A stretch of DNA of 64,000 nt, taken from NCBI GenBank assembly GCA_050747245.1, contig JBOGNO010000006.1:26005-90004 (forward strand). Reading direction: 5' to 3'. Made by a program: the position numbers and the translations under genes. Origin of the DNA: Candidatus Acidiferrales bacterium. Lineage in GTDB: Bacteria > Acidobacteriota > Terriglobia > Acidiferrales > UBA7541. Shown here in pieces: positions 1,155 through 53,960 of the stretch (the first letter of the stretch is position 1; each line of letters starts with the position of its first letter). The notes beneath the pieces were generated by a model. That model had not been told where the DNA came from. It was given only the letters and a program-made list of their open reading frames with translations, and ran no database searches.

Positions 1155-2219
1155 CTACTTGTGCTGAATGGCGGCTGGAGAACGCTGGGCATCGAGGGGC
1201 GTGAGCTGGACGCGCCAAGTGAGCGGGATGGACATTGGGAGATAGCAAACCTTCTTGTCGCAAGCCTGATATTTCAATTCACCGACAATATCGATGGCTT
1301 TTCCCGAGGGCGCGAGCGAATGGATCAGCTCGTCGGAGGAAGCGAATGTCACGTCCTGGGCGATGCGGAATTTGCCTTCGAAGACGGGGACAGTCTCATT
1401 GATGGCCTCGAGATGTAACATTTTAGAGGCGGGATAAGAAGTTGGGCCGGCGTGGAAATCAGGAGCGGGTTGCAGAGAAAGAGATATGGGCTTGTAGCCT
1501 TTGACGCCCGGGGAATAAACGTGGACCTCGGGCGGGAGCTCGGCTTCGACGAGCAAGGTGATGCGGCTGCCGGGAACCGCGGTGAGGTCCGATTGCGCAA
1601 GAGATATTCTCAGGTGAGGGGCGTTGACGCTTGAGACAGTTTGCTCAGCAAGTTGGGGAAACAATTTCAGAATAACGTTGTTGGGAGTGAAGCGGTCGCT
1701 GAAGCGATCTTCGAAATATTTTTCGCGGATCACGCCCGATTCGTCAATAAAGAAGAATCCCGCAAAAGCCATTCCTTTGGTGAAGCCGGGAGCATGTTGG
1801 GCGAGGACGCCGAAACTGCGGATGATTTTCGAATCGGGGTCGGCGAGCAGCGGGAACTCAATCTTTCTCCGGGAGGAGAAGTCCTTCAGGATTTCCGGGG
1901 AGTCGTAGCTGATGGCGGCGAGCTTGAGGCCCTGGTTTTCAATTCTCTGTTTGGCGGCTTGCAGCTGCACGAGCTGCGCTTTGCAGAAGGGTCACCAATC
2001 GGCGGAGCGGACAAACAGCAGGATGGTGCCGCGGCGGCCACGCAATGTTTCATTGCTCTGTTCATGGCCGAATTGATCGCGGACTGAAAACGCAGGCGCT
2101 CTGGCGCCGACGGCCAGTCCGATGGCGGAAGGATGCGCATCTGACGAAGGAGCACCCGATTGCGCGAAGACGATCGCTGCGAAAAAAAGGACCAGAGCGG
2201 CGACGGACAAGGATTTCAT
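1155..2219 (-). CDS. putative secreted selenoprotein: TlpA/ResA-like redoxin domain with a UxxC motif and an in-frame TGA at 1992-1994, fused to a DsbD-alpha-like domain
   Basis: Track ORFs 1992..2219 and 1155..1970 are in the same frame, separated by one TGA and 7 sense codons. The read-through protein is a signal peptide (MKSLSVAALVLFFAAIVFAQS), then ...ILLFVRSADW-U-PFCKAQL..., a redoxin body (LADPDSKIIRSFGVL, FFFIDESGVIREKYF) and a C-terminal YQACDKKVCYLP motif matching DsbD-alpha. U sits where the first Cys of the thioredoxin-fold CxxC normally is. A SECIS-like hairpin follows. Confidence 0.6.
1957..1984 (-). promoter_or_regulatory. candidate bacterial SECIS stem-loop downstream of the in-frame UGA
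   Basis: The mRNA reads UGA CCC UUC UGC AAA GC-GCAGCU-CGUGC-AGCUGC-AAGC. A perfect 6 bp stem, extendable to 7 bp by an adjacent G-C, carries a 5 nt apical loop CGUGC. Its G and U lie at +25/+26 from the UGA U, against +23/+24 for the conserved GU in E. coli fdhF SECIS. Confidence 0.45.
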
Positions 2220-3025
2220 TGTTCAGCACGCGCAGAAGCCGCGCCCCAGATCCTGCCGCCATTTCCTTCCTGAATGAATGCCACTACGCGGTTGCTGGCA
2301 GCCGATCCACCTTTGAGACCGATGGCGACATCGCCTGAAAACGGCGCGGTCCTGTCCACTTTACCGACTTTCTCCAAGTTTCTCAGAACTGCAACGTAGG
2401 AGAGCTTGCGGCCGGAGTTTTCTCCGCCTTGGACTTGCGACTCGTCGCTGTCGTCGGCAACGGCGAGGATGATGCTCGCTTGCCCGACGCCAGCGGAGGC
2501 GGGCAGCGGGCCGGCGTTGAGGTGCATGGCGAAGCGATGTCCGGAGACAAGATGGATGCCGGAGAGAGTGACTGGGGCTTTCTCCGAACCCGAAGCTGTG
2601 GCGATAGCACGGAGGGCAGTGCGTTCGTCGCTGCCGACAAATTCGAAGCGGCCGTCCACGACCATCTGGGGCGTGTAGGCTTCGGGAATCCGCAGGATTG
2701 AAACGTACGCGCGTTGACGCTCGGTGAAATCGTGCGAGGAAAAAGGATCGCGCCAGCCGCCGTCGTCCCAGTAGTCCACATGCTCGCTGAGGACGATGAT
2801 TTCGGCAGCCGGAACGGGCTGGGAGCGATCCAGATCCGCGAGAAATTTATCGGCGGGAGGGCAACTGGAGCAGCCTTCGGAGGTGAAAAGCTCAACGAGG
2901 ACGGGAGTGCGGGTAGTGGCCCCGGGCGCGGGCGGCACAGGCGCAGGCTCCAATTTGGGGAGAAAGAACGCACTAAGAATAAGTAGTGCTGGGACAGAAA
3001 AAATGACAAGTGCGCGAAGTTTCAT
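2216..3025 (-). CDS. DUF1223 family secreted protein with a CxxC motif
   Basis: A signal peptide (MKLRALVIFSVPALLILSA) is followed by ELFTSEGCSSCPPADKF, typical of DUF1223. Its stop overlaps the start of the selenoprotein gene by 4 nt (ATGA), which suggests an operon. Confidence 0.75.
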   Translation of the reverse strand: MKLRALVIFSVPALLILSAFFLPKLEPAPVPPAPGATTRTPVLVELFTSEGCSSCPPADKFLADLDRSQPVPAAEIIVLSEHVDYWDDGGWRDPFSSHDFTERQRAYVSILRIPEAYTPQMVVDGRFEFVGSDERTALRAIATASGSEKAPVTLSGIHLVSGHRFAMHLNAGPLPASAGVGQASIILAVADDSDESQVQGGENSGRKLSYVAVLRNLEKVGKVDRTAPFSGDVAIGLKGGSAASNRVVAFIQEGNGGRIWGAASARAEQ

Positions 3026-3251
3026 AAAATGTATGCCAAGCAGTTGAGGCCGCAACACCAAATTGGCCCTACCCCTTTCGATGAACAGTATAGAGAAAAG
3101 TTTCGGCTAAATGGGAGTTGCGAGCGGGTGGCTAGGGCGGAATGCTAACGCACGAGTGAGGCGCTGACGCACCTCACCGCCCACAGGGGGATCTGCGTCC
3201 TCCGGTGCGGGACGCAGATCACGAGTTGCCGCGGCAAAAAAATCCCGACTG

Positions 3252-3956
3252 CTAATTCTGGTCCGATTTTTGCGCAGCCACCGGCGCAGAATCGGCGCTG
3301 AAAACGGATACCTCCACGCGACGATTGGCGGCGTTGGCCTTTCTACCGGCACCCTCATCGGCCGGGCGCTGTTTGCCCAGGCCGACAATCTGAATGCGGT
3401 AGAGCGGGATGCTCTTCTCGACGACGAGATAGTTCTGCACAGCTTCGGCGCGGCGGCGGCTCAATTCTAGATTGTAGTCGGCCGGGCCGACTCTGTCCGT
3501 GTAGCCCTCAATGGCAATGAAAAAGCGATGCAGGGATTTTACGTTTTGGTCGACCAGGGTATCGAGCTGTTGCTTGTCCTCATCGGTGAGCTTCGAGGAA
3601 TTGAAAGCGAAGTGCACCGCGGCGTCGCCGGCGGTCTTGTAGGCGTCGAGATCGGCAATTCGTTCGCTGAGCTCGTTTTTCAGATCGCTGCGCACCTGGT
3701 CGGCTTTCGACGAAGCAGCGTCGGCGCGATTGATTGCGTCGCCGGCTCGGCTATCGGCGGACTTGGCCGTTTCGGTGGTGGCGCTCAATACCTTTTCATC
3801 GGTATCGAGCTGTTTCTGGGTCTCGGTGGCCTTGGAATCCACCTGGGAAACCCGCGCGTTTACCGGGTCCACCTGAGTCTGCACGTACTTTTTCGTGGCG
3901 CATCCGGCCAGCAGGAGCACTCCCAGGGCAAGAACGGGAAGGGAATAACGATTCAT
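3252..3956 (-). CDS. OmpA family lipoprotein
   Basis: It has a lipobox (LLLAGC) and a coiled-coil region. The C-terminal OmpA-like domain reads FAFNSSKLT...IEGYTDRVGPADYNLELSRRRAEAV...RRVEV. Confidence 0.8.
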   Translation of the reverse strand: MNRYSLPVLALGVLLLAGCATKKYVQTQVDPVNARVSQVDSKATETQKQLDTDEKVLSATTETAKSADSRAGDAINRADAASSKADQVRSDLKNELSERIADLDAYKTAGDAAVHFAFNSSKLTDEDKQQLDTLVDQNVKSLHRFFIAIEGYTDRVGPADYNLELSRRRAEAVQNYLVVEKSIPLYRIQIVGLGKQRPADEGAGRKANAANRRVEVSVFSADSAPVAAQKSDQN

Positions 3957-4416: not shown

Positions 4417-5901
4417 ATGCGATTGCATGTACGGTCCCGTCGTCGCGTAGCACGGCCCGGAAACGGCATGTTGCGGCTTCTTGCCGCGACAGGTCTTTTC
4501 GTAGTCGCGATCTTTACGATGGCGATGCTGGTAGAAGCTCAGAACGTAACTCTGCATGATCCCGGCGTGCGCGGCGGGACAATTGATTCCGGACAGCCGC
4601 TCTCAACGCTCACAGCCGCACAAGGTCAGTTTTTCGCGGACGGACTCGGCCGGTTTATCCAGGTGGATTCCGTCAGTGGGAATGGCGGATCCATCACCAA
4701 CGAACCGGGGGTAGGTCTGGGGCCGCGATTCAACAACAACTCCTGCGGAGGCTGCCACTCGCAGCCCGATGTCGGCGGGACAAGCCCTCGTGCCGACCAG
4801 TTCCCGTTCATCGGACCCAACCCGCAGACTCAAGTCTTCAACCTCGACGGGGCGCAGAACACGCTGCCCTCATTCATCACCTCGGATGGGCCTGTGCGCG
4901 AAGCGCGGTTCAAGTTTTTTTTGAATCCCGACGGTTCGCTCAGTAGCAATCCGGACGGAGGCGTTCATGACCTGTTTGTGATCGAGGGGCGCTCGGATGC
5001 TGCGAGTTGCGAGCTTGAACAGCCAAAGTTCAGCCACAACCAGGCTCTAAATAACGTGATCTTCCGGATTCCCACGCCCACGTTCGGCGAGGGATTGATT
5101 GAAAATATTCCGGACGAAACCATCCTCGCGAACATGAATGCCAACGCCGCGCAAAAACAGGCGCTCGGCATTTCCGGGCATCCCAACCACAATGGAAACG
5201 ATGGAACGATCTCCCGGTTCGGCTGGAAAGCTCAGAACAAATCGCTCGAGATTTTCGCGGGCGAGGCGTACAACGTCGAAATCGGCGTGACCAATGAGTT
5301 GTTCCAGAATGAGCGGCCGAGCCCTGACGAGGAACAAAAGAACGGCCTTCCGGCAAGTTGTAAGCTGAACCCGACGCCGGAAGACTCGACGAACTTCGCG
5401 CAGGGAACGAACGGAAACGCAAGCATCCCGAGCGATACAGTGCAGTTCGCGATGTTCATGCGGTTCCTCGCTCCGCCCACACCTTCGACCACGAATCCCG
5501 GAGGAGCGACGTCGATCGCGAACGGCCGCGAGGACTTCATCGACATCGGCTGCGCGATGTGCCACACGCCAACGCTGAAGACGGCGCACTCATCGTTCAC
5601 CTCGGGATTGGATAACGTCAACGCAAACCTGTTCTCCGATTTGCTCGACCATCACATGGGCACGAATCTGGCAGACGGCGTCTCGCAAGGAGGCGCGGGA
5701 ACGGACGAATTCCGCTCCGCACCGCTGTGGGGCCTCGGGCAGCGCATTTTCTTCCTGCACGACGGGAGGACACGCGACCTGCTGGATGCGATTGAGGAGC
5801 ACTCCAGCTCCGGATCGGAGGCCAATACAGTAATTCAAAACTTCAACAACCTCACACCACAGCAGCAGCAGGATCTTCTGAACTTCCTGCGGTCGCTGTA
5901 A
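4417..5901 (+). CDS. di-haem oxidoreductase (DHOR/DUF1111-like, putative cytochrome c peroxidase-type)
   Basis: A strong RBS (AAGGAGG, 6 nt spacing) precedes the ATG. It has a signal/TM N-terminus and two CxxCH haem motifs (SCGGCHS and GCAMCHT). The C-terminal FFLHDGRTRDLLDAIEEH is like the DHOR family. Confidence 0.7.
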   Translation: MRLHVRSRRRVARPGNGMLRLLAATGLFVVAIFTMAMLVEAQNVTLHDPGVRGGTIDSGQPLSTLTAAQGQFFADGLGRFIQVDSVSGNGGSITNEPGVGLGPRFNNNSCGGCHSQPDVGGTSPRADQFPFIGPNPQTQVFNLDGAQNTLPSFITSDGPVREARFKFFLNPDGSLSSNPDGGVHDLFVIEGRSDAASCELEQPKFSHNQALNNVIFRIPTPTFGEGLIENIPDETILANMNANAAQKQALGISGHPNHNGNDGTISRFGWKAQNKSLEIFAGEAYNVEIGVTNELFQNERPSPDEEQKNGLPASCKLNPTPEDSTNFAQGTNGNASIPSDTVQFAMFMRFLAPPTPSTTNPGGATSIANGREDFIDIGCAMCHTPTLKTAHSSFTSGLDNVNANLFSDLLDHHMGTNLADGVSQGGAGTDEFRSAPLWGLGQRIFFLHDGRTRDLLDAIEEHSSSGSEANTVIQNFNNLTPQQQQDLLNFLRSL

Positions 5902-9348: not shown

Positions 9349-9912
9349 ATGGGACTGTGGCCGGCGATGATTGCTGTCTTGCTCGCCTGCACGATTTTCC
9401 CCGTCAGCTCCGGCGCGCAGTCCGAAGACGTTTCCGAGTACCAGGTTAAGGCGGCATTCCTGTATAACTTCGCGAAATTCGTTGACTGGCCGTCGGACGC
9501 TTTTGTGAGCGACACGGCTCCCATCAATCTGTGCGTGATTGGACAAGACCCGTTTGGCGATGCGCTGGATGACGCAGTTCGCGACAAATCCATTGGCAGG
9601 CACAAGTTGGTGATTCGCCGGACCAAAAAGCTCGACGATGAGAAGGCATGCCAGATTATTTTCCTGAGCGATTCGGAAAGCAAGCGGCTTCCCGAAGTTC
9701 TCCGCTCGGTGAGCGGCGCGAGCACGCTGCTGGTTGGCGAAAGGCAGGCATTTGCCGAGCAAGGCGGCGTGATCGCATTCCTTCTGGAGGACAACAAGGT
9801 GCGATTCGCGATCAATGTAGATGCCGCAGAGCGAGCGCGGCTGAAAATCAGCTCCAAACTCCTAGCGCTGGCCACGATTGTTCACGATCCGGCGCCGGGG
9901 AAGAGAAACTAA
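9349..9912 (+). CDS. YfiR-like periplasmic protein (DUF4154)
   Basis: YQVKAAFLYNFAKFVDWP...LCVIG.DPFGDAL...LKISSKLLALA matches the DUF4154/YfiR consensus. The start is chosen at the M that begins the signal peptide (MGLWPAMIAVLLAC...AQS). In-frame upstream ATGs at 9208 and 9292 cannot be excluded. Confidence 0.6.
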   Translation: MGLWPAMIAVLLACTIFPVSSGAQSEDVSEYQVKAAFLYNFAKFVDWPSDAFVSDTAPINLCVIGQDPFGDALDDAVRDKSIGRHKLVIRRTKKLDDEKACQIIFLSDSESKRLPEVLRSVSGASTLLVGERQAFAEQGGVIAFLLEDNKVRFAINVDAAERARLKISSKLLALATIVHDPAPGKRN

Positions 9913-9913
9913 A

Positions 9914-12643
9914 ATGCGGGGATTTCGAAACACCTCCATCCGGACGAAGCTCCAGGCCATCGTAATGCTGACCTGTGGCGCAGCCTTGCTTTTGGCGGCC
10001 TTCATTTTTACCGGCTATGATCGGCTGACATTTCTGCAGTCGGATACACAGGACCTCTCCACGACGGCGAAAATGATCGGGGAGAACAGCACGGCGGCGC
10101 TTACATTTGGCGACGCCGATTCGGCCCGCGAGATTCTCACAGCGCTTCACGCGAAGGGCCACGTGGTCTTCGCCGCCATCTACGGGAAGAACGGGGAAGT
10201 ATTTGCCAAGTACAGCCGGGACCCAGCCCAAGCGGATTTTTCACCGCCCGCACCCGGGCCGGATGGCTCTGCGGTGGCCGGCGAACACAAAATCCTGTTT
10301 CAGAAAATTATTCTCAAAGACGATCCCATCGGCACCATTTATATCGAAGAGGATCTCGGAGAGTTGCATTCACGCCTAGTCCGATTCCTTGAGATCGTCC
10401 TCTTGGCCTTGTTCCTTTCCCTGACCACAGCTTTTTTCTTTTCTTCGAGCCTTCAGAAGGTGATTTCGACGCCGATTCGCGAGCTCGCCGAGACAGCGTC
10501 GTCTGTTTCCGTGCACGAGAATTATTCGATTCGAGCCGTAAAGAAGAATGATGATGAGATCGGGTTTCTCTTCGACCAGTTTAACGGGATGCTCGACCGC
10601 ATTCAGCAACGGGATGTGGCGCTGCAAGAGGCGCACGACCAGCTTGAAACCAGGGTTGCGGAGCGCACTGCATTTCTCAATGCACTGATTGACACCAGCC
10701 CCCTAGCCATCGTCGTTTTGAATCCAGCGAGTGAGGTGCAGCTGTGCAATCCAGCATTCGAAAGGCTATTCCAATACTCGCGCGCAGAGGCCATTGGGCT
10801 CTCCCTGGAGAAACTGATAGCGGACGAGGAGTTGGCCTCGGAAATGCAAACTGCCCATAGCACCATGGCCGAGGACGAAACAGTCATCCTTGTCACGCGC
10901 CGGCGTCGTAAGGACCAAACCGTAGTGGATGTGGAACTTCACGCCGTGCCCCTAATCGTCAACGGCAGAGTCGCGGGCAGCTTCACAATCTATCAGGACG
11001 TGTCCATTCGCAAGCGCACGGAAGCAGAAATGCGGCGCGCCAAGGAAGCCGCCGAAGCCGCCAGCAAGGCGAAGAGCGAGTTCCTGGCAAACATGAGCCA
11101 CGAAATCCGCACGCCGATGAATGGAATCATGGGTATGACGGAACTGGTGTTGGATTCGAAACTCGATTCCGATCAGCGCGATTACCTGAACATGGTGAAG
11201 TCATCGGCAGAGTCCCTTCTTTCGTTGATCAACGACATCTTGGATTATTCAAAGATTGAAGCCGGAAAACTGGAGTTCGAGGCCATCGGCTTCAATCTCG
11301 GCGAGTGTCTAGGCGATACGATGAAATCGCTCAGTTTCCGCGCGCACGAGAAGGGGCTGGAACTCGCCTATTACCTCCAACCGGATGTTCCCGAAGCGCT
11401 CGTCGGCGATCCTGGCCGGCTACGCCAAGTGATGGTCAATTTGGTTGGGAACGCCATCAAGTTCACGGCCAAGGGTGAAGTGGTCGTTTATGGCCAAGTA
11501 GAGTCGAAGACCGAAGCCGACGCCCTGCTGCACTTTACGATCACAGACACGGGCATAGGTATCCCGCAGGAAAAGCAAGCTGCCATCTTCGAGGCGTTCA
11601 CGCAAGTGGACGGCTCGATGAGTCGCACATACGGAGGCACGGGTTTAGGCTTGACCATTTCCTCGCGATTGGTAGATCTGATGCGAGGGAAGATTTGGGT
11701 CGAGAGCGAAGTCGGAAAGGGCAGTCGCTTCCACTTCACGGCCCGCGTAGGAATACAAAAACCGCCGGCGCGATTCGTAGTTCCCAAGGACTCGGCTGTG
11801 TTGCGCGACATGCGGGTGCTGGTAGTTGACGACAACGCCACGAACCGCCATATCCTGCTGAAGATGCTCGAGAGCTGGAGGACGCAACCTACGGGCGTGG
11901 GGAGCGGAGCTGATGCACTCCGGACGCTCCACGAAGCGCAAAGCCTGGGTGGGACATTCCCGCTCATTTTGCTGGACGCCCAGATGCCGGAAATGGATGG
12001 CTTTGCTTTGGCGGATTCCATCAAACGGAACCCGGAATGGAAAACCGCGACCATCATGATGCTCAGTTCGGCTGGGCAGCGCGGAGACGCAAGTCGCTGC
12101 CGAGAGTTGGGTGTTGCCGCCTATCTGACCAAGCCGATCCGGCGAGCGGAACTATTGGATGCGATCCTCACTGCCCTGAGAACCAGCACGGCGGAGGGCG
12201 CGCAAGCCCCCGTCCTGGTCACGCGCCACTGGCTGCGGGAGAATAGCTGCCAACTTCGCATCCTTCTTGTCGAGGACAACAAGGTAAACCAGGTGCTCGC
12301 ACTTCGGTTGCTGGAGCGGCAGGGCCATTCCGTGACCTTGGCCGGGAACGGCAAAGAAGCACTGGCAACCTTGGAAAAGCAATCGTTTGATTTGGCGCTT
12401 ATGGATGTTCAGATGCCGGAGATGGATGGGTTCGAGGCCACAGCCATCATCCGCGAGAAAGAAAGATTATCTGGAGCCCATTTGCCCATCATCGCCATGA
12501 CCGCCCATGCCATGGTCGGCGACCGAGAACGGTGTTTGAAAGCTGGAATGGACGACTACATCACCAAGCCTATCCACGCCCAGAATCTGATGGAATTGCT
12601 GAAGCGTATTTCTCCCACAAGTGAAAAGGAGAAAGTGCTCTAG
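9914..12643 (+). CDS. hybrid sensor histidine kinase with periplasmic domain, HAMP, PAS, HisKA, HATPase_c and two receiver domains
   Basis: The ATG is 2 nt after the YfiR-like stop. The H-box ([11 protein letters not shown]), N/G boxes ([24 protein letters not shown]) and two REC domains ([24 protein letters not shown]) are present. Confidence 0.9.
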
Positions 12644-12700: not shown

Positions 12701-12778
12701 TGGCGGGGCCGACGGGACTCGAACCCGCGACCTCCTGCGTGACAGGCAGGCGTTCTAAACCGACTGAACTACGGCCCC
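12701..12778 (-). tRNA. tRNA-Asp (anticodon GTC)
   Basis: A manual cloverleaf fold gives acceptor GGGGCCG/CGGCCCC, D-stem GUUC/GAAC, anticodon stem CCUGC/GCAGG with loop CUGUCAC, a T-arm with GUUCGAGU, discriminator G and an encoded CCA. Confidence 0.9.
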
Positions 12779-12806
12779 GCGAATTAAAGCTTGCAGCTAA
12801 ACTCTG

Positions 12807-12882
12807 TGGTGGGCGGTCACAGACTTGAACTGTGGACCTTCCCGGTGTAAGCGGGATGCTCTAACCACTGAGCTAACCGCCC
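12807..12882 (-). tRNA. tRNA-Val (anticodon TAC)
   Basis: A manual fold gives acceptor GGGCGGU/ACCGCCC, D-stem GCUC/GAGC, anticodon stem UCCCG/CGGGA with loop CUUACAC, T-stem CACAG/CUGUG with loop UUCAAGU, discriminator A and an encoded CCA. Confidence 0.9.
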
Positions 12883-13708: not shown

Positions 13709-14809
13709 TTACGGCCGGCGCTTCAAGACGGGCCGGTCGCTGTTATCGTCGCCGCTGCTCTGAGTACCGCCGGTCTTGTTGGGATCGGCTTCGGTCTTCT
13801 TCCGCAGAGTGGGCTTGCCCGGGCCCTTAGTTTCCTGAGCCTTTTGACCTGCCTCGATCATCGCCAGGCGGTGCTTCACGCTATCAAACTCTGAAGTGGT
13901 GACGATGTATTCCTCGCGAGGCGGGAGGATTTCAGCAATTTCCTTCTGCGCCGCCGCGACGCGATCGGGAGTGGGAGGATGCGTGGCGAAGACCTTCGGA
14001 ATGGTTCCCGGACGCTTGCGATCCTCCGCCTCGATCTTTTCAAAAAACGTCACAAACGCGTTGGGGTCGTATCCCGCTTTGTACATGTACTGGAGCCCAA
14101 GATAATCGGCCTCGCGCTCCACGTCGCGGGAAAATTTCAAGTAGGTCAGAGGAATCAGGAAGTTCATGCCCTGGTATATGGCATATCCCGTCCAAGTGTA
14201 GGGGATGAAAATCATGGCGGGGATGCTCGCGAGGTTAATGATCTCGCCTTTGGTTGCATTGCGTGTGCCGTGGCGAGCGCACACATGCGCGGTCTCATGC
14301 GCCATGGCGCCGGCCAGTTCCGCTTCCTCATCAGCGTGCAGGATCAGGCCGCTGTTCACGTAAAAGAAACCACCGGGGAGAGCGAAGGCGTTCACGACAT
14401 CGGAGTCAATGACCTTGATGGTGAAGGGAACCTGACAATCGGAATTGCGGACAATATTCTGTCCCACGCGGTTCACGTATTCGTTGACCACCGGATCCTG
14501 GATGAACTTGGCCTCGCGATCCACTTCCGAGGCGAGTTGCTTACCGAGGGCGATCTCCCTCTCGAGAGAATAGAAATCGGGGCCATGGCCGACTTTGCGG
14601 TTGCCGATGGCGCTGACGTCGGACTCGTTTCCTTTTCCGTTGCCCGGTGTGTCCGGGCTCTGCGTCTGCTGCTGGGACGACTGGGTTGATTGCTGAGTCG
14701 ACTGCTGGCTCGATTGCTGCTGGGACTGTTGCTGTGCCGCCAACCCGGGGGGCAGAACGAGGACCGTTGACAACAGGGCCGCTCCAATTCGCATTGTCCA
14801 AGGATTCAT
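13709..14809 (-). CDS. M48 family metallopeptidase (BepA/YcaL-like), secreted
   Basis: It has an HETAHVCARH zinc motif and a downstream READYLGLQYMYKAGYDP. The signal peptide is followed by a Gln/Ser-rich low-complexity linker. The start may be at 14827. Confidence 0.8.
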   Translation of the reverse strand: MNPWTMRIGAALLSTVLVLPPGLAAQQQSQQQSSQQSTQQSTQSSQQQTQSPDTPGNGKGNESDVSAIGNRKVGHGPDFYSLEREIALGKQLASEVDREAKFIQDPVVNEYVNRVGQNIVRNSDCQVPFTIKVIDSDVVNAFALPGGFFYVNSGLILHADEEAELAGAMAHETAHVCARHGTRNATKGEIINLASIPAMIFIPYTWTGYAIYQGMNFLIPLTYLKFSRDVEREADYLGLQYMYKAGYDPNAFVTFFEKIEAEDRKRPGTIPKVFATHPPTPDRVAAAQKEIAEILPPREEYIVTTSEFDSVKHRLAMIEAGQKAQETKGPGKPTLRKKTEADPNKTGGTQSSGDDNSDRPVLKRRP

Positions 14810-14970
14810 CGGCGCTTCCTCCGCCAAGCCTCGCAGGAGTATACACCCCCTTCAGGCGGGCTTTCGTCAATTCGTTGGATGAGGTGTCGGCAAGAATAGT
14901 TTCCTTTCCGAGAGCGGAGATTGCAGGACCGCGAGCAAAGTTGACGCATGCTGGGAAAGCGTCTAGAGTC

Positions 14971-15201
14971 ATGCAGATGACGGCGCCAGCCAAGATTCAG
15001 CTCGGACAAGTGTGGAAAAAAGACAGCACGCCCGACTCCTACCTAGTGACGAAAATTTACACTGAGGCGCTCGCAACCATAGTGCTCCTGCGCAAGGCAG
15101 GAGCGGAGGACGAGCCTCCGCTGCGAGTTCGCGTGGTCCGCGACGGTAACGCACAAGCGCTTCCCGGATTTACGTTTGCGCAGGAGAGTGGAGAATTCTA
15201 G
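14971..15201 (+). CDS. hypothetical small protein (76 aa)
   Basis: The ATG-initiated ORF occupies an otherwise gene-free 410 bp gap. No recognisable domain is seen, and the coding status is uncertain. Confidence 0.2.
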   Translation: MQMTAPAKIQLGQVWKKDSTPDSYLVTKIYTEALATIVLLRKAGAEDEPPLRVRVVRDGNAQALPGFTFAQESGEF

Positions 15202-39510: not shown

Positions 39511-42222
39511 GTGAGTCTCGGGGCGGGGACGAAGCTGGGGCCGTACGAGATCGTGGCGCCGGTAGGCGCGGGCGGGATGGGAGAGGTGTACCGCGCGCGG
39601 GATACGCGGCTCGACCGCACGGTCGCAATCAAAGTGCTGCCCAAGCACCTGGCCGACACTCCCGAGGCACGGCAAAGATTTGAGCGCGAGGCGCGCGCGG
39701 TTTCCTCGCTGAATCATCCGCATATCTGCACGCTGCATGACGTCGGTCACGAGGGCGGCACGGATTTTCTGGTGATGGAATATCTCGAAGGCGAGACGCT
39801 CGCGAAGCGCATCGTGAAGGGCGCGCTCGCGACGCCGGAATTGCTGCGCACAGCGATTGAGATTGCGGACGCGCTCGAAAAAGCGCATCGCCAGGGCGTA
39901 ATTCACCGCGATTTGAAGCCGGGCAACATCATGCTGACGAAGTCCGGGGCGAAGCTGATGGACTTCGGGCTGGCGAAGGCTGCGAGCGCGGGAGGGGCGG
40001 CGCCTTCATCGACCTTGACGATGTCGCTGAATCAAGCCGCGGCCACAACGGAGCCGCTGACGGCGAAGGGAACGATCGTCGGCACGTTCCAATACATGGC
40101 GCCGGAACAAGTGGAAGGCAAAGAATCTGACGCGCGCGCGGACATCTTCGCATTCGGCGCGGTATTGTATGAAATGGCGACAGGGAAGCGAGCGTTCGAA
40201 GGCAAGTCGCAGGCGAGCGTGATTGCCGCAATTCTCGCCGCGGAGCCGCCGCCGATTTCGACGTTGCAGCCGATGTCGCCGCCGGCGCTTGACCGCGTGG
40301 TGAGAATTTGCCTAGCGAAAGATCCGGACGAGCGGTTTCAGAGCGCGCACGACTTGAAATTGCAACTGGAATGGATTCGCGATGCGGGTTCGCAGGCAGG
40401 GGTTCCCGCGCCGGTGATTGCGCGGCGCAAGCATCGCGAGCTGAGTCTTGCGGTGGCGGCTGCGCTAGCTATTATCGCCGCGACTGTCTTCGCAGTCTCG
40501 TATTTCACGCGTGGGTCGGCGGAGCGGCAGCCAATTCGCGCCTTTATCAAGCCAGCACAGAATTCGAGCATCGCTAGTTACAATGGCGGGTCCGCGGGGT
40601 TTGCAGTCTCGCCGGACGGACTTCGTTTGGCCTATGTGGCGACTACGCCGAAGGGAAAATCCGTCTTGTGGGTCCGTGCTCTCGACTCGTTGCAAGCCCA
40701 GCCGCTCGACGACACCGAAGGAGCAGTTCTGCCATTTTGGTCCCCAGACAGCCGCTTTATCGGATTTTTTGCGGACGGAAAACTGAAGAAAATCGAAGCG
40801 TCTGGCGGACCGTCATTGACTCTTTGCGATGCACCAGGAGGACGCGGCGGCACCTGGAATGGGGACGGGACCATTGTTTTTTCGCCGTTTTTTAGCACGC
40901 CGCTCTATCGCGTTTCAGCCGCAGGCGGCGTGGCCGCTCAGGTGACAATTCTCGACCGCGGAAAGAATGAATCCACACACCGCTGGCCGTGGTTCCTGCC
41001 TGACGGGCGGCACTTTCTCTACTTGGCAGGCAATCCGCTTACGCCCGCGGGTGTTCCAACCAACTCCATCATGGTTGGTTCACTCGACTCCAAGGAAACC
41101 AAATTCCTTTTCCATTGCCATTCCAATGCCATCTTCAGCTCGGGCTACATTCTCTTTCTTCGGCAGAACACACTCATGGCACAGCCCTTCGATCCAAAGA
41201 GTCTCGAATTGACAGGCGATGCCGGGCCAGTAGCGGAACAAGTGGAAGACGCTGTACCACGAGTGCAGGGCGAATTTTCTGCGTCCCACAACGGAGTGCT
41301 TGCTTATCTGGAGATGGGGAGCGCCGGCCGACAATTGACCTGGTTTGACAGGAGCGGGAAACAGCTCGGGACGGTGCCTGGCGCAGATAGCTACGCCGAC
41401 CCGCACATCTCACCTAACGGAAAGGAGCTGGTTTTTCAGCTTGAGACTCCTGGCAGCGACATCTGGCTTTACGATATGGCGCGCAGTGTGAAGACGCGAT
41501 TCAGCTTCGGCTCAGGGAATATGTCTCCGATATGGTCGCCTGACGGTAGCCGCATCGCGTACACCTCCGTACGCAACGGCGGGTTTGGGATTTATGGGAA
41601 AGCTGCCGACGGCTCGGAGCGAGAAGAGGTTCTTGTCCAGCCCGGTCCAGATCAGTTGTACCCCGTGGATTGGTCTCCCGATGGCAAATTCATTGCCTAT
41701 CTGGACTGGCAGCCTGGCGGAACGGTGTTGATGATGCTTCCGCTGCAAGGCGACCACAAGCCACACGCTCTCAATCTACTCCAGCAGTCCGAGTCCCCGT
41801 ACTTTTCCTTTCAGACCGTTGCTTTCTTTTCACCGGACGGAAAATGGCTGGCCTATAGTTCGGCCGAATCGGGCAGGTGGGAGGTTTATGTCAGCCCCTT
41901 CCCAGGACCGGGAGGAAAGTGGCAGGTATCGACCGGGGGTGGATGGTTTCCACGATGGCGACACGATGGCAGAGAGCTTTTTTATGTTTCGCCTGACAAT
42001 AAAATTATGTCCGCCGAAGTGAAAACAAGCGGCTCGAGTTTTGTAGTTGGCGCCGTCCAGCCGCTTTTCGAGACCAAGCCATATTTCGGGCTGTTCACCG
42101 CCAACCTATTCGATGTCACAGCGGACGGCCAGAAGTTCGTTGTTCCTTACGAGACTGGTCAACCGGACAGAACGTTCGCCCTGGTCGTCAACTGGCCGGC
42201 GGTGCTGAAGAAACAGCCATGA
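39511..42222 (+). CDS. Ser/Thr protein kinase fused to a TolB-like beta-propeller domain
   Basis: A GTG start follows GAGGGAAG. Kinase subdomains include GAGGMGEVYRA, AIK, HRDLKPGNIM, DFGLA and GT.QYMAPE. A TM segment is followed by PD/WSPDG repeat blades. Confidence 0.85.
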   Translation: MSLGAGTKLGPYEIVAPVGAGGMGEVYRARDTRLDRTVAIKVLPKHLADTPEARQRFEREARAVSSLNHPHICTLHDVGHEGGTDFLVMEYLEGETLAKRIVKGALATPELLRTAIEIADALEKAHRQGVIHRDLKPGNIMLTKSGAKLMDFGLAKAASAGGAAPSSTLTMSLNQAAATTEPLTAKGTIVGTFQYMAPEQVEGKESDARADIFAFGAVLYEMATGKRAFEGKSQASVIAAILAAEPPPISTLQPMSPPALDRVVRICLAKDPDERFQSAHDLKLQLEWIRDAGSQAGVPAPVIARRKHRELSLAVAAALAIIAATVFAVSYFTRGSAERQPIRAFIKPAQNSSIASYNGGSAGFAVSPDGLRLAYVATTPKGKSVLWVRALDSLQAQPLDDTEGAVLPFWSPDSRFIGFFADGKLKKIEASGGPSLTLCDAPGGRGGTWNGDGTIVFSPFFSTPLYRVSAAGGVAAQVTILDRGKNESTHRWPWFLPDGRHFLYLAGNPLTPAGVPTNSIMVGSLDSKETKFLFHCHSNAIFSSGYILFLRQNTLMAQPFDPKSLELTGDAGPVAEQVEDAVPRVQGEFSASHNGVLAYLEMGSAGRQLTWFDRSGKQLGTVPGADSYADPHISPNGKELVFQLETPGSDIWLYDMARSVKTRFSFGSGNMSPIWSPDGSRIAYTSVRNGGFGIYGKAADGSEREEVLVQPGPDQLYPVDWSPDGKFIAYLDWQPGGTVLMMLPLQGDHKPHALNLLQQSESPYFSFQTVAFFSPDGKWLAYSSAESGRWEVYVSPFPGPGGKWQVSTGGGWFPRWRHDGRELFYVSPDNKIMSAEVKTSGSSFVVGAVQPLFETKPYFGLFTANLFDVTADGQKFVVPYETGQPDRTFALVVNWPAVLKKQP

Positions 42223-46803: not shown

Positions 46804-49296
46804 ATGGGATCGTTCTGGCAGGACGTGCGCTATGGATTGCGACAACTTCGACTGAGCCCGGGCTTCGCCGTGGTGGCCGTACTTTCGCTGGCGCTGGGGA
46901 TTGGTGCGAACACCTCCATCTTCCAGCTCATTGACGCCATTCGTTTGCGCACGATTCCGGCAAAGCATCCCGAGCAGCTTGCCACCATCCGCATTGCAGA
47001 CAGACACTGGGCCTCGGGCAATTTTTCGAGCAATTATCCGCAGCTTTCGTACCCCATGTGGCAGCAGATCCGCCAGCGGCAGGAGGCACTCTCTCCCATC
47101 GCTGTGTGGAGCAACACTACATTCAATCTTTCCACGGGCGGCGAAGCACACTATGCCCAGGGAATCTGGGTTAGCGGCGATTTTTTCAATGTGCTGGGAG
47201 TGCAGCCGTTCATTGGAAGGCTGATTTCGCCTGCCGAGGACGTTGCAGGCTGCGGTTCGGCGGGAGTGGATATCAGTTACTCGTTCTGGCAGCGGCAGTA
47301 CGGCGGCCAAGCTTCCGCCGTGGGGAAGCAAATTACCCTCGACGGGCACCCGTTTGTGATCCTCGGAGTCGCGCCGCCCGGGTTTCGCGGAATTTCCGTA
47401 GGGGATTATTTCGATGTGGCCGTGCCGGTTTGTTCGGAGCCGGTGGACCAGGGAGAAGATTCAAGACTCAACATGCGCTGGGGATGGTGGCTCGCTTCGA
47501 TAGGGCGGCTGAAGCCGGGGTGGACGTTGGAGAAGGCGAATGCGCAGTTGAAGGTGATCACGCCCGCGGTGCTTCAAGAGACGATTCCGCCGCAGTATGA
47601 CGCGCAAGGCGTGAAACACTATCTTGAATACCAGCTCGCCGCATATCCGGCGGCGACGGGGTTTTCCAACATGCGTGAGCAATCGGAGACTCCTTTGTAC
47701 CTGCTGCTGGGAATTTCAGGGCTAGTGCTGCTGATCGCCTGCGCCAACATCGCTAACTTGATGCTGGCGCGGGCTAGTGTGCGCGAGCGCGAGATTGCCG
47801 TGCGGCTGGCGCTCGGAGCCTCGCGCGGGAGGCTGATCCGGCAGTTGCTCTCGGAAAGCCTGCTGCTGGCCGTGGCAGGTGCAATTTGCGGCGCGCTCCT
47901 GGCCGGGGTGATGAGTCAATCGCTCATCTCGTTCCTAAGCACGACCAACAACCCGGTCTTCTTGGACCTGGGCCTCGACTGGCGCGTGCTGGGTTTCGCG
48001 ACCGGGCTGGCGTTTCTCACGACGATTCTTTTCGGGCTGATGCCCGCCGTGCGCGCCACAGGCACGTCTCCGGCTGAGGTCTTAAAAGCGGGCAGCCGGG
48101 GCATGACTGCTTCGCCCGAACGATTCGGTCTGCGACGAATTCTAGTGACTTCGCAAGTGGCTCTTTCACTGGTGCTGCTGGTGGGTGCGCTACTGTTCGT
48201 GCGCAGCCTGCGGAATCTAATGACGCTGGACGCAGGATTTCAGCAGAACGGGATTCTGATAGCCAACCTGGATTTCACGCGGATGAATTTGGCGAGCGAG
48301 CGACGATTCGATTTCAAGCACACTTTACTCGAGCATCTTCGCGCGATTCCGGGTGTGGAATCCGCGGCGGAATCGCAGACGACGCCCGTGAGCGGAAATT
48401 CATGGAACCGGACGGTTCTGGGCGATACGCCCGAAAAAGGGCTCGGCAATGTGTGGCTCATCTACGCCAGCCCCGAGTATTTCAAAACATACGGGATTCC
48501 TATCCTGGCGGGGAGAGACATCGCGGAAAGCGATACAGCGACCTCGCCGAAAGTCGCCGTCGTCAATCAGGCGTTCGTCGCCAAGTATTTTGGCGGACAG
48601 AGCCCGGTGGGAAAGACGTTCCGGATTCAGCCGTTTGCGGGAGAGCAACCTCCCGTTTATGAAATCATCGGCGTGGTAAAAAATGCGATTTATCAGGACA
48701 TGCATGAAGAATTTCTGCCGACAGCGTACTTCCCGGAATCGCAGCGATCCAAGCCGGACTCATTTACCAACGTAACGATGCGCTCGAACGTGGCGCTCGC
48801 CGGGCTGATCAATTCAGTTAAGGGCGCCGTGGGGGACGTCAACCCGGATATTGATATTGATTTTCGTGTGTTTAAGACGCAAATCCGCGAATCACTGTTG
48901 CAGGACGAGCTGATGGCCACGCTCTCCGGCTTCTTCGGATTTCTAGCGGCGCTGCTCGCGGCCATCGGGCTTTACGGAGTGATTTCCTACATGGTGGCGC
49001 AGCGCAGGAACGAAATCGGAATCCGCATGGCGCTCGGGGCGCAACGCGGCGACGTGGTGGGCATGATGATGCGCGAGGCGGGGCTTCTGGTGGGCATCGG
49101 GCTGGTGGTGGGGAGCGTGCTGGGGCTCGTGGCCGCGAAGGAAGCGGCATCGCTGCTCTTCGGGCTGAAGCCACGAGACCCGGTGACGTTTGTGATGGCG
49201 GTCGTCGCGCTCGCCGTGGTGGCGGCGCTCGCGAGCTTCCTGCCAGCGCGTCGCGCCGCGGCGCTCGACCCCTGGACGGCGCTCCGCGACGAATAA
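46804..49296 (+). CDS. ADOP-family duplicated FtsX permease, second copy
   Basis: It begins directly at MGSFWQDVRYGLRQL with two FtsX repeats. The N-terminal extension seen in the upstream paralog is absent. Confidence 0.85.
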   Translation: MGSFWQDVRYGLRQLRLSPGFAVVAVLSLALGIGANTSIFQLIDAIRLRTIPAKHPEQLATIRIADRHWASGNFSSNYPQLSYPMWQQIRQRQEALSPIAVWSNTTFNLSTGGEAHYAQGIWVSGDFFNVLGVQPFIGRLISPAEDVAGCGSAGVDISYSFWQRQYGGQASAVGKQITLDGHPFVILGVAPPGFRGISVGDYFDVAVPVCSEPVDQGEDSRLNMRWGWWLASIGRLKPGWTLEKANAQLKVITPAVLQETIPPQYDAQGVKHYLEYQLAAYPAATGFSNMREQSETPLYLLLGISGLVLLIACANIANLMLARASVREREIAVRLALGASRGRLIRQLLSESLLLAVAGAICGALLAGVMSQSLISFLSTTNNPVFLDLGLDWRVLGFATGLAFLTTILFGLMPAVRATGTSPAEVLKAGSRGMTASPERFGLRRILVTSQVALSLVLLVGALLFVRSLRNLMTLDAGFQQNGILIANLDFTRMNLASERRFDFKHTLLEHLRAIPGVESAAESQTTPVSGNSWNRTVLGDTPEKGLGNVWLIYASPEYFKTYGIPILAGRDIAESDTATSPKVAVVNQAFVAKYFGGQSPVGKTFRIQPFAGEQPPVYEIIGVVKNAIYQDMHEEFLPTAYFPESQRSKPDSFTNVTMRSNVALAGLINSVKGAVGDVNPDIDIDFRVFKTQIRESLLQDELMATLSGFFGFLAALLAAIGLYGVISYMVAQRRNEIGIRMALGAQRGDVVGMMMREAGLLVGIGLVVGSVLGLVAAKEAASLLFGLKPRDPVTFVMAVVALAVVAALASFLPARRAAALDPWTALRDE

Positions 49297-53869: not shown

Positions 53870-53960
53870 TAAGTTCCTCCTCACACATCATACGCGCAGC
53901 GGGGCCAGCGAAGCGTTCTTGTGTATCATGGACGAGGGAGTAGCGGGAGAGAACAGGGCG

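What the first reader, a model, noticed from the sequence alone, without database searches (positions are those of the whole stretch)
1155..2219. Candidate secreted selenoprotein: TlpA-like redoxin with UxxC fused to a DsbD-alpha-like domain
Two ORFs share one reading frame and are split by a single TGA. Each alone would be truncated. The upstream piece is only a signal peptide plus ...LLFVRSADW. The downstream piece is a redoxin fold that lacks its active site. Read-through places U exactly at the first Cys of the thioredoxin-fold motif (WUPFC, compare WCGPC in TlpA/ResA). The C-terminus carries YQACDKKVCYLP, the redox-active Cys pair of the DsbD N-terminal domain. A selenocysteine redoxin covalently linked to its likely electron-relay partner in one periplasmic protein is not an architecture I know of.
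Basis: partly seen in the sequence, partly recalled or inferred. Interest (0 to 1): 0.85.

Follow-up and report, generated by a model that had tools for sequence, protein, structure and literature searches.

The report
Secreted selenocysteine redoxin with DsbD-alpha domain
The in-frame TGA is a real selenocysteine codon in a secreted two-domain redox protein of soil Acidobacteriota; the selenocysteine form is widespread, public annotation splits or mistranslates it, and it is a new variant of a known kind of selenoprotein, not a new kind.

Summary
Observation confirmed. One 354-codon frame on the minus strand (2219..1155) carries a single TGA at 1992-1994. It sits at the first position of an xxC redox motif, SADW-U-PFC.

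The TGA codes for selenocysteine:
- TGA occupies this codon in 24 other species-representative Acidobacteriota genomes and in at least 4 metagenome loci. TGC/TGT occupies it in 57 genome loci.
- A 6-7 bp hairpin lies 14 nt downstream. It meets all four published bacterial SECIS criteria and shows compensatory changes.
- Synonymous codons are constrained in TGA forms only.
- In one TGA-form MAG, tRNA-Sec, selD, selA and selB follow the gene directly.

Domains: the N-terminal domain is AhpC/TSA (Prx-like, closest solved structure M. tuberculosis AhpE), not TlpA proper. It lacks the Prx Pro/Thr/Arg catalytic residues. The C-terminal domain is DsbD-alpha-like by Pfam and by predicted fold, with an invariant C-x4-C pair.

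The fusion itself is common, with about 2000 protein clusters, mostly Cys forms. Some members sit beside a CcdA-type DsbD_TM gene and a TlpA-like gene.

Likely role: an envelope reductase fed by a split DsbD-like relay. This is inferred.

Novelty: a new variant of the known "Prx-like thiol:disulfide oxidoreductase (UxxC)" selenoproteins. Sec machinery could not be checked in the window's own genome.

The parts
1155..2219 (-). Complete read-through coding sequence: 354 codons plus stop, with one internal UGA
   Evidence: Single frame. Pfam domains span the TGA. Full-length Cys homologs of 350-360 aa align end to end.
2163..2219 (-). Predicted Sec-type signal peptide, MKSLSVAALVLFFAAIVFA|QS
   Evidence: Read from the sequence. 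The hydrophobic N-terminus is kept in homologs. No signal-peptide predictor was run.
1992..1994 (-). UGA codon 76, read as selenocysteine
   Evidence: TGA in 24 other species genomes, TGC/TGT in 57 loci, CGA in 1. Also TGA in the distant metagenome forms L090 and L091.
1983..1994 (-). U-P-F-C redox motif (codons 76-79)
   Evidence: C79 is invariant. In the alignment to AhpE, U76 pairs with the Prx Thr and C79 with the peroxidatic Cys.
1961..1977 (-). Bacterial SECIS-type hairpin GCAGCU-CGUGC-AGCUGC, starting 14 nt after the UGA
   Evidence: Criteria taken from PMC13188914: 6 bp stem, 5 nt loop with G then U at positions 2-3, 20 nt from the UGA to the loop, about -9 to -10 kcal/mol.
1722..2111 (-). 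AhpC/TSA (Prx-like, thioredoxin-fold) domain, aa 37-166
   Evidence: Pfam PF00578, E 3.4e-26. The fold of the homolog P0009 is closest to AhpE, TM 0.85.
1233..1580 (-). DsbD-alpha-like (DsbD_N) beta-sandwich domain, aa 214-329
   Evidence: Pfam PF11412, 36.2 bits against a cut-off of 25. AF2 model of the window's own C-terminal 165 aa has pLDDT 88.7. Its ten best PDB matches are all DsbD-alpha or ScsB-alpha.
1245..1262 (-). Conserved Cys pair C320-x4-C325 (YQACDKKVCY)
   Evidence: Invariant in 44 aligned homologs. C-x4-C in 119 of 120 clusters.
2216..3061 (-). Upstream DUF1223 gene (thioredoxin-fold, CSSC motif). Its stop overlaps the selenoprotein start (ATGA), so it is probably co-transcribed
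   Evidence: Pfam PF06764, E 1e-54. The same neighbour is present in 11 TGA-form loci. DUF1223 is classed as thioredoxin fold, PDB 2axo, in PMC3091736. The start codon is uncertain: public calls give 240 or 280 aa.

Best explanation
The region is one gene for a secreted, two-domain selenoprotein. During translation, UGA at codon 76 is read as selenocysteine. A short hairpin 14 nt downstream, lying inside the coding sequence for helix alpha-1, acts as a bacterial SECIS for SelB and Sec-tRNA(Sec). The product has a signal peptide, then an AhpC/TSA-type thioredoxin-fold domain with active site W-U-P-F-C, a roughly 25-residue linker, and a DsbD-alpha-like beta-sandwich domain with a C-x4-C pair.

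Shown here:
- the Sec/Cys pairing across homologs;
- the conserved and covarying hairpin;
- the identity of both domains;
- invariance of all four redox residues;
- the sel locus and a CcdA/TlpA-like pair lying next to members of the family.

Inferred: the protein works in the cell envelope as a reductase. Electrons would come from the cytoplasm through a CcdA-type DsbD_TM protein and a TlpA-like lipoprotein, which together stand in for DsbD-beta and DsbD-gamma. They would pass to the alpha-like Cys pair and then to the fused U/C centre. The exposed selenolate would then attack an oxidised substrate, such as a protein disulfide, a sulfenic acid or possibly a peroxide. The neighbouring Trx-fold DUF1223 protein is a candidate partner.

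I put about 0.93 on 'genuine selenoprotein' and about 0.5 on this particular order of electron flow.
For: 1. Sec/Cys pair. At the aligned codon, 24 further species-representative Acidobacteriota genomes have TGA, 57 loci have TGC/TGT and 1 has CGA. Protein sequence is conserved on both sides of the codon. The distant metagenome forms L090 and L091 also have SADW-TGA-P[FY]CK. At least 20 of 149 50%-identity cluster representatives start just after the motif, as truncated gene calls would.
2. SECIS. All 23 distinct TGA-form sequences form 6-7 of 7 pairs, mean -9.9 kcal/mol. The 51 Cys-form sequences average 4.1 of 7 pairs and -2.9 kcal/mol. In the hairpin, 89.8% of cells are paired, against 8-50% when the partner strand is slid. 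Three pairs carry double changes, a value reached by 3 of 500 shuffles. Examples are G-C to A-U in L018 and G-C to C-G in L029 and L091. All four bSECIS criteria from PMC13188914 are met. Synonymous sites are constrained only in TGA forms: Gln82 is CAG in 21 of 22 against 24 of 48 (p = 1.4e-4), and Leu86 is NTG in 22 of 22 against 27 of 53 (p = 1e-5).
3. Machinery. In L022 the TGA-form gene is followed within 75 nt by tRNA-Sec (ARAGORN; Rfam RF01852, 62.7 bits). Next come selD, itself with an in-frame UGA, then selA and selB, all above their NCBIfam cut-offs.
4. Domains..
5. Relay context. The Cys forms P0009 and P0016 (L087) lie in the operon redoxin-DsbD_N / DsbD_TM / TlpA-like lipoprotein. 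The Sec form L022 has the same two genes upstream.
6. Precedent. The alpha domain of ScsB keeps a periplasmic Prx-like protein (PrxL) reduced in Caulobacter (PMC3322552).
Against: No tRNA-Sec, selA, selB or selD lies in the 64 kb window (and the Pfam/NCBIfam surveys). The Sec trait of this particular genome is therefore inferred from relatives. Rfam has no model that detects this hairpin.

Four of the seven stem pairs never vary, and the palindrome CAGCTG is partly imposed by the Gln-Leu coding. Covariation is real but modest, and the sequences are phylogenetically related.

No DsbD_TM or TlpA-like gene lies near the gene in the window or in most loci. The relay is documented by gene neighbourhood in only a few members. 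I could not read model coordinates, so whether the two redox centres can meet within one chain is untested. There is no experimental evidence of selenium incorporation or of any activity.
Confidence: 0.85

Rival explanations
1. The gene is a real selenoprotein, but the relay runs the other way. The U/CxxC redoxin domain would be the DsbD-gamma equivalent that takes electrons from the membrane protein CcdA. The fused alpha-like domain would be the output module that reduces separate partners, such as the DUF1223 protein, the TlpA-like lipoprotein or DsbC/G-like proteins.
For: In DsbD the thioredoxin-like gamma domain reduces alpha, and alpha then serves the external substrates (background in PMC3322552). 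The operon redoxin-DsbD_N / DsbD_TM / TlpA-like fits this order equally well. A Trx-fold DUF1223 gene is translationally coupled upstream in the window's clade.
Against: The redoxin is Prx-like (nearest AhpE and BCP), not a DsbD-gamma or TlpA type. CcdA proteins are known to reduce TlpA/ResA-type partners, and exactly such a gene is present in these operons. Prx-like proteins are known as acceptors from alpha domains (PrxL). Sec at the exposed first position is typical of a terminal nucleophile.
Confidence: 0.25
2. The gene is a real selenoprotein that acts as a true peroxidase, that is, a periplasmic selenoperoxiredoxin recycled by its own DsbD-alpha-like domain. It would not be a disulfide or sulfenate reductase.
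For: The best Pfam and fold matches are peroxiredoxins. Public sources name the homologs 'peroxiredoxin'. A periplasmic Prx fed by a DsbD-family protein exists: PprX. Selenolates react quickly with peroxides even without the Prx triad (general knowledge of GPx-type enzymes). Neighbours include OsmC in relatives and a di-haem peroxidase-like gene in the window.
Against: The defining Prx motif PxxxTxxC plus Arg is not met. The sequence here is S-A-D-W-U-P-F-C, and the Arg position is A, H, Y or F in the Sec clade. Sec occupies the thioredoxin-type first position, not the peroxidatic position. The Caulobacter Prx-like protein that lacks these residues had no detectable peroxidase activity.
Confidence: 0.25
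3. The TGA is a nonsense mutation, a sequencing or assembly error, or marks a decaying pseudogene. Alternatively, the two ORFs are separate genes.
For: Public gene calls split the locus into a 75-aa ORF and a later ORF. One relative has CGA at the site (L001). One locus holds a truncated copy (L028).
Against: The TGA recurs at the same codon in 24 other species and in independent assemblies. Both flanks are under protein-level conservation. One Pfam domain spans the stop. Neither piece alone would have a complete fold or a complete active site.
Confidence: 0.02
4. TGA is a sense codon in this organism (genetic code 4 or 25, giving Trp or Gly), as the JGI translations with W at this site imply.
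For: 18 of the top 120 protein clusters show W at the site.
Against: Their DNA has TGA and they do not translate to the stored protein under table 11. The W therefore comes from the gene caller picking code 4 on short contigs. In the window, 12 of 30 long ORFs end in TGA. The position is a catalytic Cys in homologs. tRNA-Sec and selABD lie next to an ortholog.
Confidence: 0.01

Closest known systems
Prx-like thiol:disulfide oxidoreductase selenoproteins (PF00578 with UxxC/UxxU; Kryukov & Gladyshev 2004; listed in PMC1794560 and PMC13188914)
   Same: AhpC/TSA-family thioredoxin fold. Sec at the first position of a UxxC motif. Cys-containing homologs exist. The bSECIS lies directly downstream within the coding region.
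   Different: The prototypes were reported mainly from Deltaproteobacteria and Clostridia, and the sources I read do not mention a DsbD-alpha domain. This one is secreted, carries a C-terminal DsbD_N domain with its own Cys pair, and is from Acidobacteriota. I did not test direct homology to the Geobacter prototype.
DsbD / ScsB alpha domains and their periplasmic clients (E. coli DsbD; Caulobacter ScsB with PrxL and TlpA-PprX, PMC3322552)
   Same: An immunoglobulin-like alpha domain with a redox Cys pair in a YQ(A/G)C...CY context. It delivers electrons to thioredoxin-fold or Prx-like proteins in the envelope. Members of this family have a DsbD_TM gene and a TlpA-like gene next to them.
   Different: Here the alpha-like domain is not attached to the membrane transporter. 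It is fused to the presumed client. The Cys spacing is C-x4-C rather than C-x5-C. The client uses Sec.
Cys-containing 'peroxiredoxin family / redoxin domain-containing' proteins of Acidobacteriota (e.g. P0059, P0061, P0009)
   Same: The same two-domain architecture at 52-59% identity, with the same four redox positions. These are direct homologs.
   Different: They have TGC/TGT in place of TGA and lack the downstream hairpin. Some carry an N-terminal extension of about 75 aa.
M. tuberculosis AhpE (1-Cys peroxiredoxin; PDB 1xvw, 4x0x)
   Same: The closest solved structure to the redoxin domain (TM 0.81-0.86, 31% identity to P0009).
   Different: AhpE has the Prx Pro, Thr, peroxidatic Cys and Arg. 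This protein has Ser, Sec and Cys at the first three positions, and no conserved Arg in the Sec clade.
SelL-related redox proteins (NF040769) and ResA-like WAxxUGC selenoproteins (NF041054)
   Same: Thioredoxin-fold or Prx-like redox proteins with Sec-containing members. Both give weak NCBIfam hits.
   Different: Scores are far below the cut-offs (48.7 against 120, and 25.1 against 300), so this protein is not a member.

Membership tests
Bacterial selenoprotein (Sec decoded at UGA) | In-frame UGA at a position that is Cys in homologs | tested here: met
   TGA aligns with TGC/TGT in 57 loci and with C in 99 of 120 protein clusters.
Bacterial selenoprotein (Sec decoded at UGA) | UGA conserved in orthologs of other species, with coding conservation on both sides | tested here: met
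   24 further species-representative genomes plus metagenome loci. Alignment.
Bacterial selenoprotein (Sec decoded at UGA) | [quoted passage not shown] | tested here: met
   6 bp stem, CGUGC loop, 20 nt spacing, about -9 to -10 kcal/mol. Covariation, contrast with Cys forms and synonymous-site constraint.
Bacterial selenoprotein (Sec decoded at UGA) | tRNA-Sec, SelA, SelB and SelD encoded in the same genome | not testable with these tools
   None lies in the 64 kb window. The feature is met in an ortholog-bearing MAG, where selC-selD-selA-selB directly follow the gene (L022). The window's full genome could not be read.
Bacterial selenoprotein (Sec decoded at UGA) | Selenium physically incorporated into the protein | not testable with these tools
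   This needs 75Se labelling or mass spectrometry.
Peroxiredoxin proper (catalytic Prx) | PxxxTxxC active-site motif plus the conserved Arg | tested here: not met
   The alignment to AhpE gives S72 for Pro, U76 for Thr and C79 for the peroxidatic Cys. The Arg position is A in the window and H, Y or F in the Sec clade. All NCBIfam Prx models score far below their cut-offs.
Prx-like thiol:disulfide oxidoreductase selenoprotein family | PF00578 domain with a UxxC motif | tested here: met
   PF00578, 92 bits against a cut-off of 26, with U-P-F-C. Family definition taken from PMC13188914.
Prx-like thiol:disulfide oxidoreductase selenoprotein family | Direct sequence relationship to the prototype (Geobacter WP_010940744.1) | not tested
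TlpA/ResA/CcmG thiol-disulfide oxidoreductases | Match to the family models above their cut-offs | tested here: not met
   ResA NF002854 scores 43.4 against 170. DsbE TIGR00385 scores 15.5 against 123. Pfam Redoxin (61 bits) is weaker than AhpC-TSA (92 bits). The ResA fold match, TM 0.74-0.79, is below AhpE at 0.85.
DsbD alpha (DsbD_N, PF11412) domain | Sequence match above the Pfam gathering score | tested here: met
   36.2 bits against a cut-off of 25, aa 214-329.
DsbD alpha (DsbD_N, PF11412) domain | Immunoglobulin-like fold of DsbD-alpha | tested here: met
   AF2 model of window aa 190-354 has pLDDT 88.7. Its top ten PDB matches are DsbD-alpha from E. coli and Neisseria, and ScsB-alpha, at E 3e-5 to 2.5e-4. 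A sequence-profile search of the PDB found nothing.
DsbD alpha (DsbD_N, PF11412) domain | Redox Cys pair at the position of C103/C109 | tested here: inconclusive
   hhalign puts YQAC-DKKVCYLP on YQGCADAGFCYPP with a one-residue gap (probability 61%). The pair is invariant in the family.
DsbD/ScsB electron transporter (whole protein) | Alpha domain joined to the DsbD_TM membrane domain and a gamma thioredoxin domain in one polypeptide | tested here: not met
   No TM domain is in this protein. In some relatives DsbD_TM and a TlpA-like protein are separate neighbouring genes. None lies in the window.
SelL-related redox protein (NF040769) | Score above the curated cut-off | tested here: not met
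   48.7 bits against a cut-off of 120.

The most novel reading that the evidence does not exclude
The fusion would be a self-contained periplasmic selenoenzyme. A DsbD-alpha-like relay domain would be tethered to a Sec-based Prx-like centre, so that the selenylsulfide is recycled within the same chain from a split CcdA/TlpA pathway. It would be a major client of the Sec machinery in many soil Acidobacteriota. In one MAG it sits directly in front of selC-selD-selA-selB. It could define an uncharacterised envelope defence against oxidative or copper stress, given its neighbours: bufferin-like DUF692/DUF2063/DoxX clusters, ECF sigma factors, OsmC and DUF1223.
Probability: 0.3. Interest if true: 0.6.

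Novelty: new variant of a known kind. Interest (0 to 1): 0.45.

Why it matters
It adds a widespread selenoprotein that is currently mis-annotated to the Acidobacteriota, an abundant soil phylum. Public records split the gene at the TGA into 75-aa and roughly 270-aa ORFs, or translate the TGA as Trp. Sec forms are therefore invisible in protein databases, although they account for at least 20 of the 149 nearest 50%-identity clusters.

It is also a natural fusion of an electron-relay domain with its presumed client. That makes the order of electron transfer in DsbD-type pathways, and the benefit of Sec over Cys in an oxidising compartment, testable within a single polypeptide that has natural Cys counterparts.

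It is not a new principle. Thioredoxin-fold UxxC selenoproteins and alpha-domain relays are both established.

Tried and rejected
- Rfam at gathering thresholds found only two tRNAs in the window and no SECIS family. I relied on comparative analysis instead.
- The whole-segment MFE fold of the 73 nt after the UGA is no better than shuffles (z = +1.56). Only the local hairpin is meaningful, so single-sequence folding was not used as evidence.
- A generic scan of the window for other ORF pairs split by one TGA gave 139 candidates in this 58% GC sequence. It was too noisy to use.
- Motif searches for SelB and SelD in the window found nothing. They found selB in L022 by luck.
- PDB sequence searches found no DsbD match for the C-terminal domain, neither with the single protein nor with the C-domain profile. 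Only a fold comparison did.
I modelled the Cys homolog P0009 and the window's own C-terminal domain instead. The tools return no model coordinates, so the distance between the two redox centres could not be measured.
- The afdb50 fold library was unavailable.
- I looked for DsbD_TM and TlpA-like genes in all fetched loci. They were found only in L087 and L022, plus the gene tables for P0009. The relay context is therefore not universal.
- I considered and rejected genetic code 4 (the JGI 'W'), a pseudogene, and two separate genes (see the rival explanations).
- Literature searches for a redoxin-DsbD_N selenoprotein, or for DUF1223 together with selenoproteins, found no description.
Full report
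**What is in the sequence.** The feature lies on the minus strand. Reading 2219 to 1155 in one frame gives 354 codons with a single internal stop, TGA at 1992-1994 (codon 76). The local sequence is ...GTILLFVRSADW-TGA-PFCKAQLVQLQ.... The ORF lister reports the two halves separately: 75 aa, then 271 aa starting at a GTG. With Cys placed at codon 76, Pfam finds AhpC-TSA across the stop (aa 37-166, E 3.4e-26, stronger than Redoxin at 1.4e-16). It also finds DsbD_N at aa 214-329 (36.2 bits, cut-off 25). The N-terminus, MKSLSVAALVLFFAAIVFA|QS, looks like a Sec-type signal peptide.

**The TGA is not an error and not chance.**
- A protein search returned 1969 matching clusters. The best 120 are nearly all the same two-domain fusion.
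- The more distant of these have W-C-P-Y-C at the site. The closest JGI entries show 'W', and one shows 'R'.
- Fetching their DNA showed that the 'W' entries carry TGA and do not translate to the stored protein under table 11. The gene caller had evidently used code 4. The 'R' entry is a true CGA.
- A scan of one genome per GTDB species returned 80 loci. All but one (a Rhizomicrobium MAG) are Acidobacteriota: Terriglobia, Acidoferrales, Bryobacterales and Acidobacteriaceae. At the aligned codon, 24 have TGA and 57 loci have TGC or TGT.
- Two much more distant metagenome members also read SADW-TGA-P[FY]CK.
- At least 20 of the 149 nearest 50%-identity cluster representatives begin with M/V-(Q/E)-L just after the motif. 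This is the signature of a gene call restarted after an internal stop.
- An independent Logan assembly is identical to the window across the TGA, and an NCBI MAG contig carries it too. Their public gene calls split the gene.
- TGA still terminates 12 of 30 long ORFs in the window, so the codon has not been reassigned.
- On a neighbour-joining tree the Sec forms make one large clade with two Cys forms nested inside it. Two further Sec forms sit among Cys relatives. That implies repeated Sec/Cys interconversion.

**SECIS element.** Fourteen nucleotides after the UGA lies GCAGCU-CGUGC-AGCUGC (window 1977..1961).

[quoted passage not shown] Here the values are a 6 bp stem, a 5 nt loop with GU, 20 nt spacing, and about -9 to -10 kcal/mol.

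| Measure | TGA forms | Cys forms |
|---|---|---|
| Distinct sequences | 23 | 51 |
| Pairs formed, of 7 | 6-7 in all | mean 4.1 |
| Mean hairpin energy (kcal/mol) | -9.9 | -2.9 |
| Gln82 codon CAG | 21 of 22 | 24 of 48 (p = 1.4e-4) |
| Leu86 codon CTG/TTG | 22 of 22 | 27 of 53 (p = 1e-5) |

The single CAA at Gln82 among the TGA forms is paired with UUG at Leu86.

In the 21-sequence alignment, 89.8% of cells are paired, against 8-50% when the 3' arm is slid. Three of seven pairs show changes on both sides, a value reached by 3 of 500 shuffles. Examples are GCAACU...AGUUGC in L018 and CCAGCUC...GAGCUGG in L029 and L091.

Three caveats apply. Four pairs never vary. The Gln-Leu coding favours the CAGCTG palindrome. 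The sequences are related to one another. The covariation is supportive but not overwhelming; the contrast between Sec and Cys forms is the stronger argument.

**Sec machinery.** None is in the window (domain surveys). That is unsurprising for 64 kb. In the TGA-form locus L022 (MAG MFD10064.bin.2.73) the layout is as follows.
- The gene ends at 10660.
- tRNA-Sec follows at 10732-10830 (ARAGORN; Rfam RF01852, 62.7 bits).
- selD comes next (TIGR00476, E 5e-101). It has its own in-frame UGA, SSCAG-U-ASKL.
- selA (E 1.7e-136) and selB (E 3.4e-94) complete the set.

This shows that an ortholog with the same TGA and hairpin sits in a Sec-decoding genome and is physically linked to the sel locus. For the window's own genome the trait remains an inference.

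**What kind of redoxin.**
- The closest solved sequences and structures are peroxiredoxins. M. tuberculosis AhpE gives phmmer E 2.6e-11 and Foldseek TM 0.81-0.86 for the AF2 model of the Cys homolog P0009 (pLDDT 81.8, pTM 0.70). ResA and other TlpA-type proteins come lower.
- In the AhpE alignment the Prx motif P-x-x-x-T-x-x-C corresponds to S72-A-D-W-U76-P-F-C79. Sec therefore takes the place of the Prx Thr, which is the first Cys of a thioredoxin CxxC. C79 takes the place of the peroxidatic Cys. The Prx Arg is not conserved in the Sec clade.
- No NCBIfam model reaches its cut-off. The best are BCP at 54.6 against 140, SelL-related at 48.7 against 120, and ResA at 43.4 against 170.
- The domain is thus a Prx-like CxxC/UxxC thiol-disulfide oxidoreductase. 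It is neither a catalytic Prx nor a TlpA proper.
- This matches the long-known predicted selenoprotein class 'Prx-like thiol:disulfide oxidoreductase (PF00578; UxxC, UxxU)'.

**The C-terminal domain.**
- Pfam DsbD_N is above threshold.
- An AF2 model of the window's own last 165 residues (pLDDT 88.7) has ten best PDB matches. All are DsbD-alpha from E. coli or Neisseria, or ScsB-alpha.
- The Cys pair is invariant, and it is C-x4-C in 119 of 120 clusters.
- hhalign lays YQAC-DKKVCYLP on YQGCADAGFCYPP of E. coli DsbD-alpha.
- The same alpha-like domain also occurs as roughly 190-aa stand-alone secreted proteins.

**Context and mechanism.**
- In the window, a DUF1223 gene (thioredoxin fold per PMC3091736, CSSC motif) lies directly upstream. 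Its stop overlaps the start of the selenoprotein gene (ATGA). The pair is kept in 11 TGA-form loci.
- In the Cys forms P0009 and P0016 the gene is followed by a DsbD_TM (CcdA-type) gene and a TlpA-like lipoprotein gene. The Sec form L022 has the same two genes upstream.
- Many Acidobacteriaceae Cys forms, and the Sec form L090, lie downstream of a DUF692/DUF2063/DoxX cluster, ECF sigma and anti-sigma genes, and OsmC.
- Published work shows that alpha domains of DsbD-family proteins keep periplasmic Prx-like proteins reduced. An example is ScsB acting on PrxL, which has no detectable peroxidase activity.

My preferred model is cytoplasmic thioredoxin, then CcdA, then the TlpA-like protein, then the alpha-like Cys pair, then the fused U/C centre, then an oxidised envelope substrate. 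The reverse order, with the redoxin acting as a gamma equivalent and alpha as the output, fits the gene neighbourhoods equally well. A true peroxidase role is also not excluded. These steps are inferences. Only the parts list and the gene neighbourhoods are shown.

**Comparison and novelty.** The fusion is common in Cys form, and Prx-like UxxC selenoproteins are established. This is therefore not a new category. I did not find the following described in the searched literature or captured by any NCBIfam model: the Sec form of this two-domain, secreted architecture; its breadth in Acidobacteriota; and its linkage to a sel locus in one MAG. I rate it a new variant of a known kind, of moderate interest. 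Its sense of architectural uniqueness was not.

Noticed in passing
L001 10229-10231 (JGI Ga0672923_0000291): One close homolog has CGA (Arg) where the others have TGA, while the SECIS hairpin downstream is still intact. It is either a recent inactivating or altering mutation, or a base-call error.
   Followed up: partly
L002, L003, L004 and 18 of the top 120 protein clusters (P0001-P0004 etc.): JGI protein records show Trp at the Sec site. Their DNA has TGA and fails to translate to the record under table 11, so the gene caller used code 4 on these short contigs. This is an annotation artefact that hides Sec forms.
   Followed up: yes
L088 11738-12719 (NCBI GCA_975256005.1, contig CDHSYF010000038.1), against window 1155-2219: This MAG contig is identical to the window from far upstream to gene nt 240, just past the TGA. 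It then switches to a different homolog at about 65% identity. That is either a chimeric join or a strain switch inside the conserved TGA-SECIS stretch. Which assembly, if either, is chimeric was not resolved.
   Followed up: partly
L022 10891-11946: The selD gene next to the ortholog itself has an in-frame TGA (SSCAG-U-ASKL), so SelD is a selenoprotein in that MAG.
   Followed up: partly
L028 about 14700-15050: A second, truncated TGA-containing copy lies 5 kb from a full Cys copy. It has the N-terminal extension, SAEW-TGA-PYCK and the hairpin, then breaks off. It looks like a pseudogene remnant.
   Followed up: partly
L024 about 2960: A one-base insertion inside the hairpin region (CAACTTGGTCGAG against CAACTGGTCGAG in L018) shifts the frame. 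It is probably an assembly error in that MAG.
   Followed up: no
L038-L084 (upstream 1-3 kb), L001 2693-4476, L090 104-2045: Many family members lie downstream of a DUF692 (MbnB/TglH-like) / DUF2063 (HvfC) / DoxX cluster. In some loci there is also a small Cys-rich CKG-repeat peptide gene. From memory this resembles bufferin-type RiPP metallophore clusters, and it hints at a link with copper or metal stress.
   Followed up: partly
P0106 and P0121 (616-617 aa): These are tandem duplications of the whole redoxin plus DsbD_N unit. One copy has a degenerate active site (SADWDFYS or SADWSSYC).
   Followed up: no
window 4417-5901 (+): A di-haem oxidoreductase / putative peroxidase (PF06537 DHOR, two CxxCH motifs) lies two genes from the selenoprotein, after an OmpA-like lipoprotein gene (3252-3956, minus strand). 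The arrangement is the same in L088 and L089.
   Followed up: partly
window 43805-46591, 46804-49296, 53919-55178 (+): Three MacB_PCD/FtsX-type permease genes lie within 12 kb. The window also holds a Ser/Thr kinase with PD40 repeats (39511-42222) and a CHASE8-PAS hybrid histidine kinase (9878-12643) next to a TonB-dependent receptor.
   Followed up: no
window 12701-12882 (-): tRNA-Asp(GTC) and tRNA-Val(TAC) are the only RNA genes detected in the window.
   Followed up: yes
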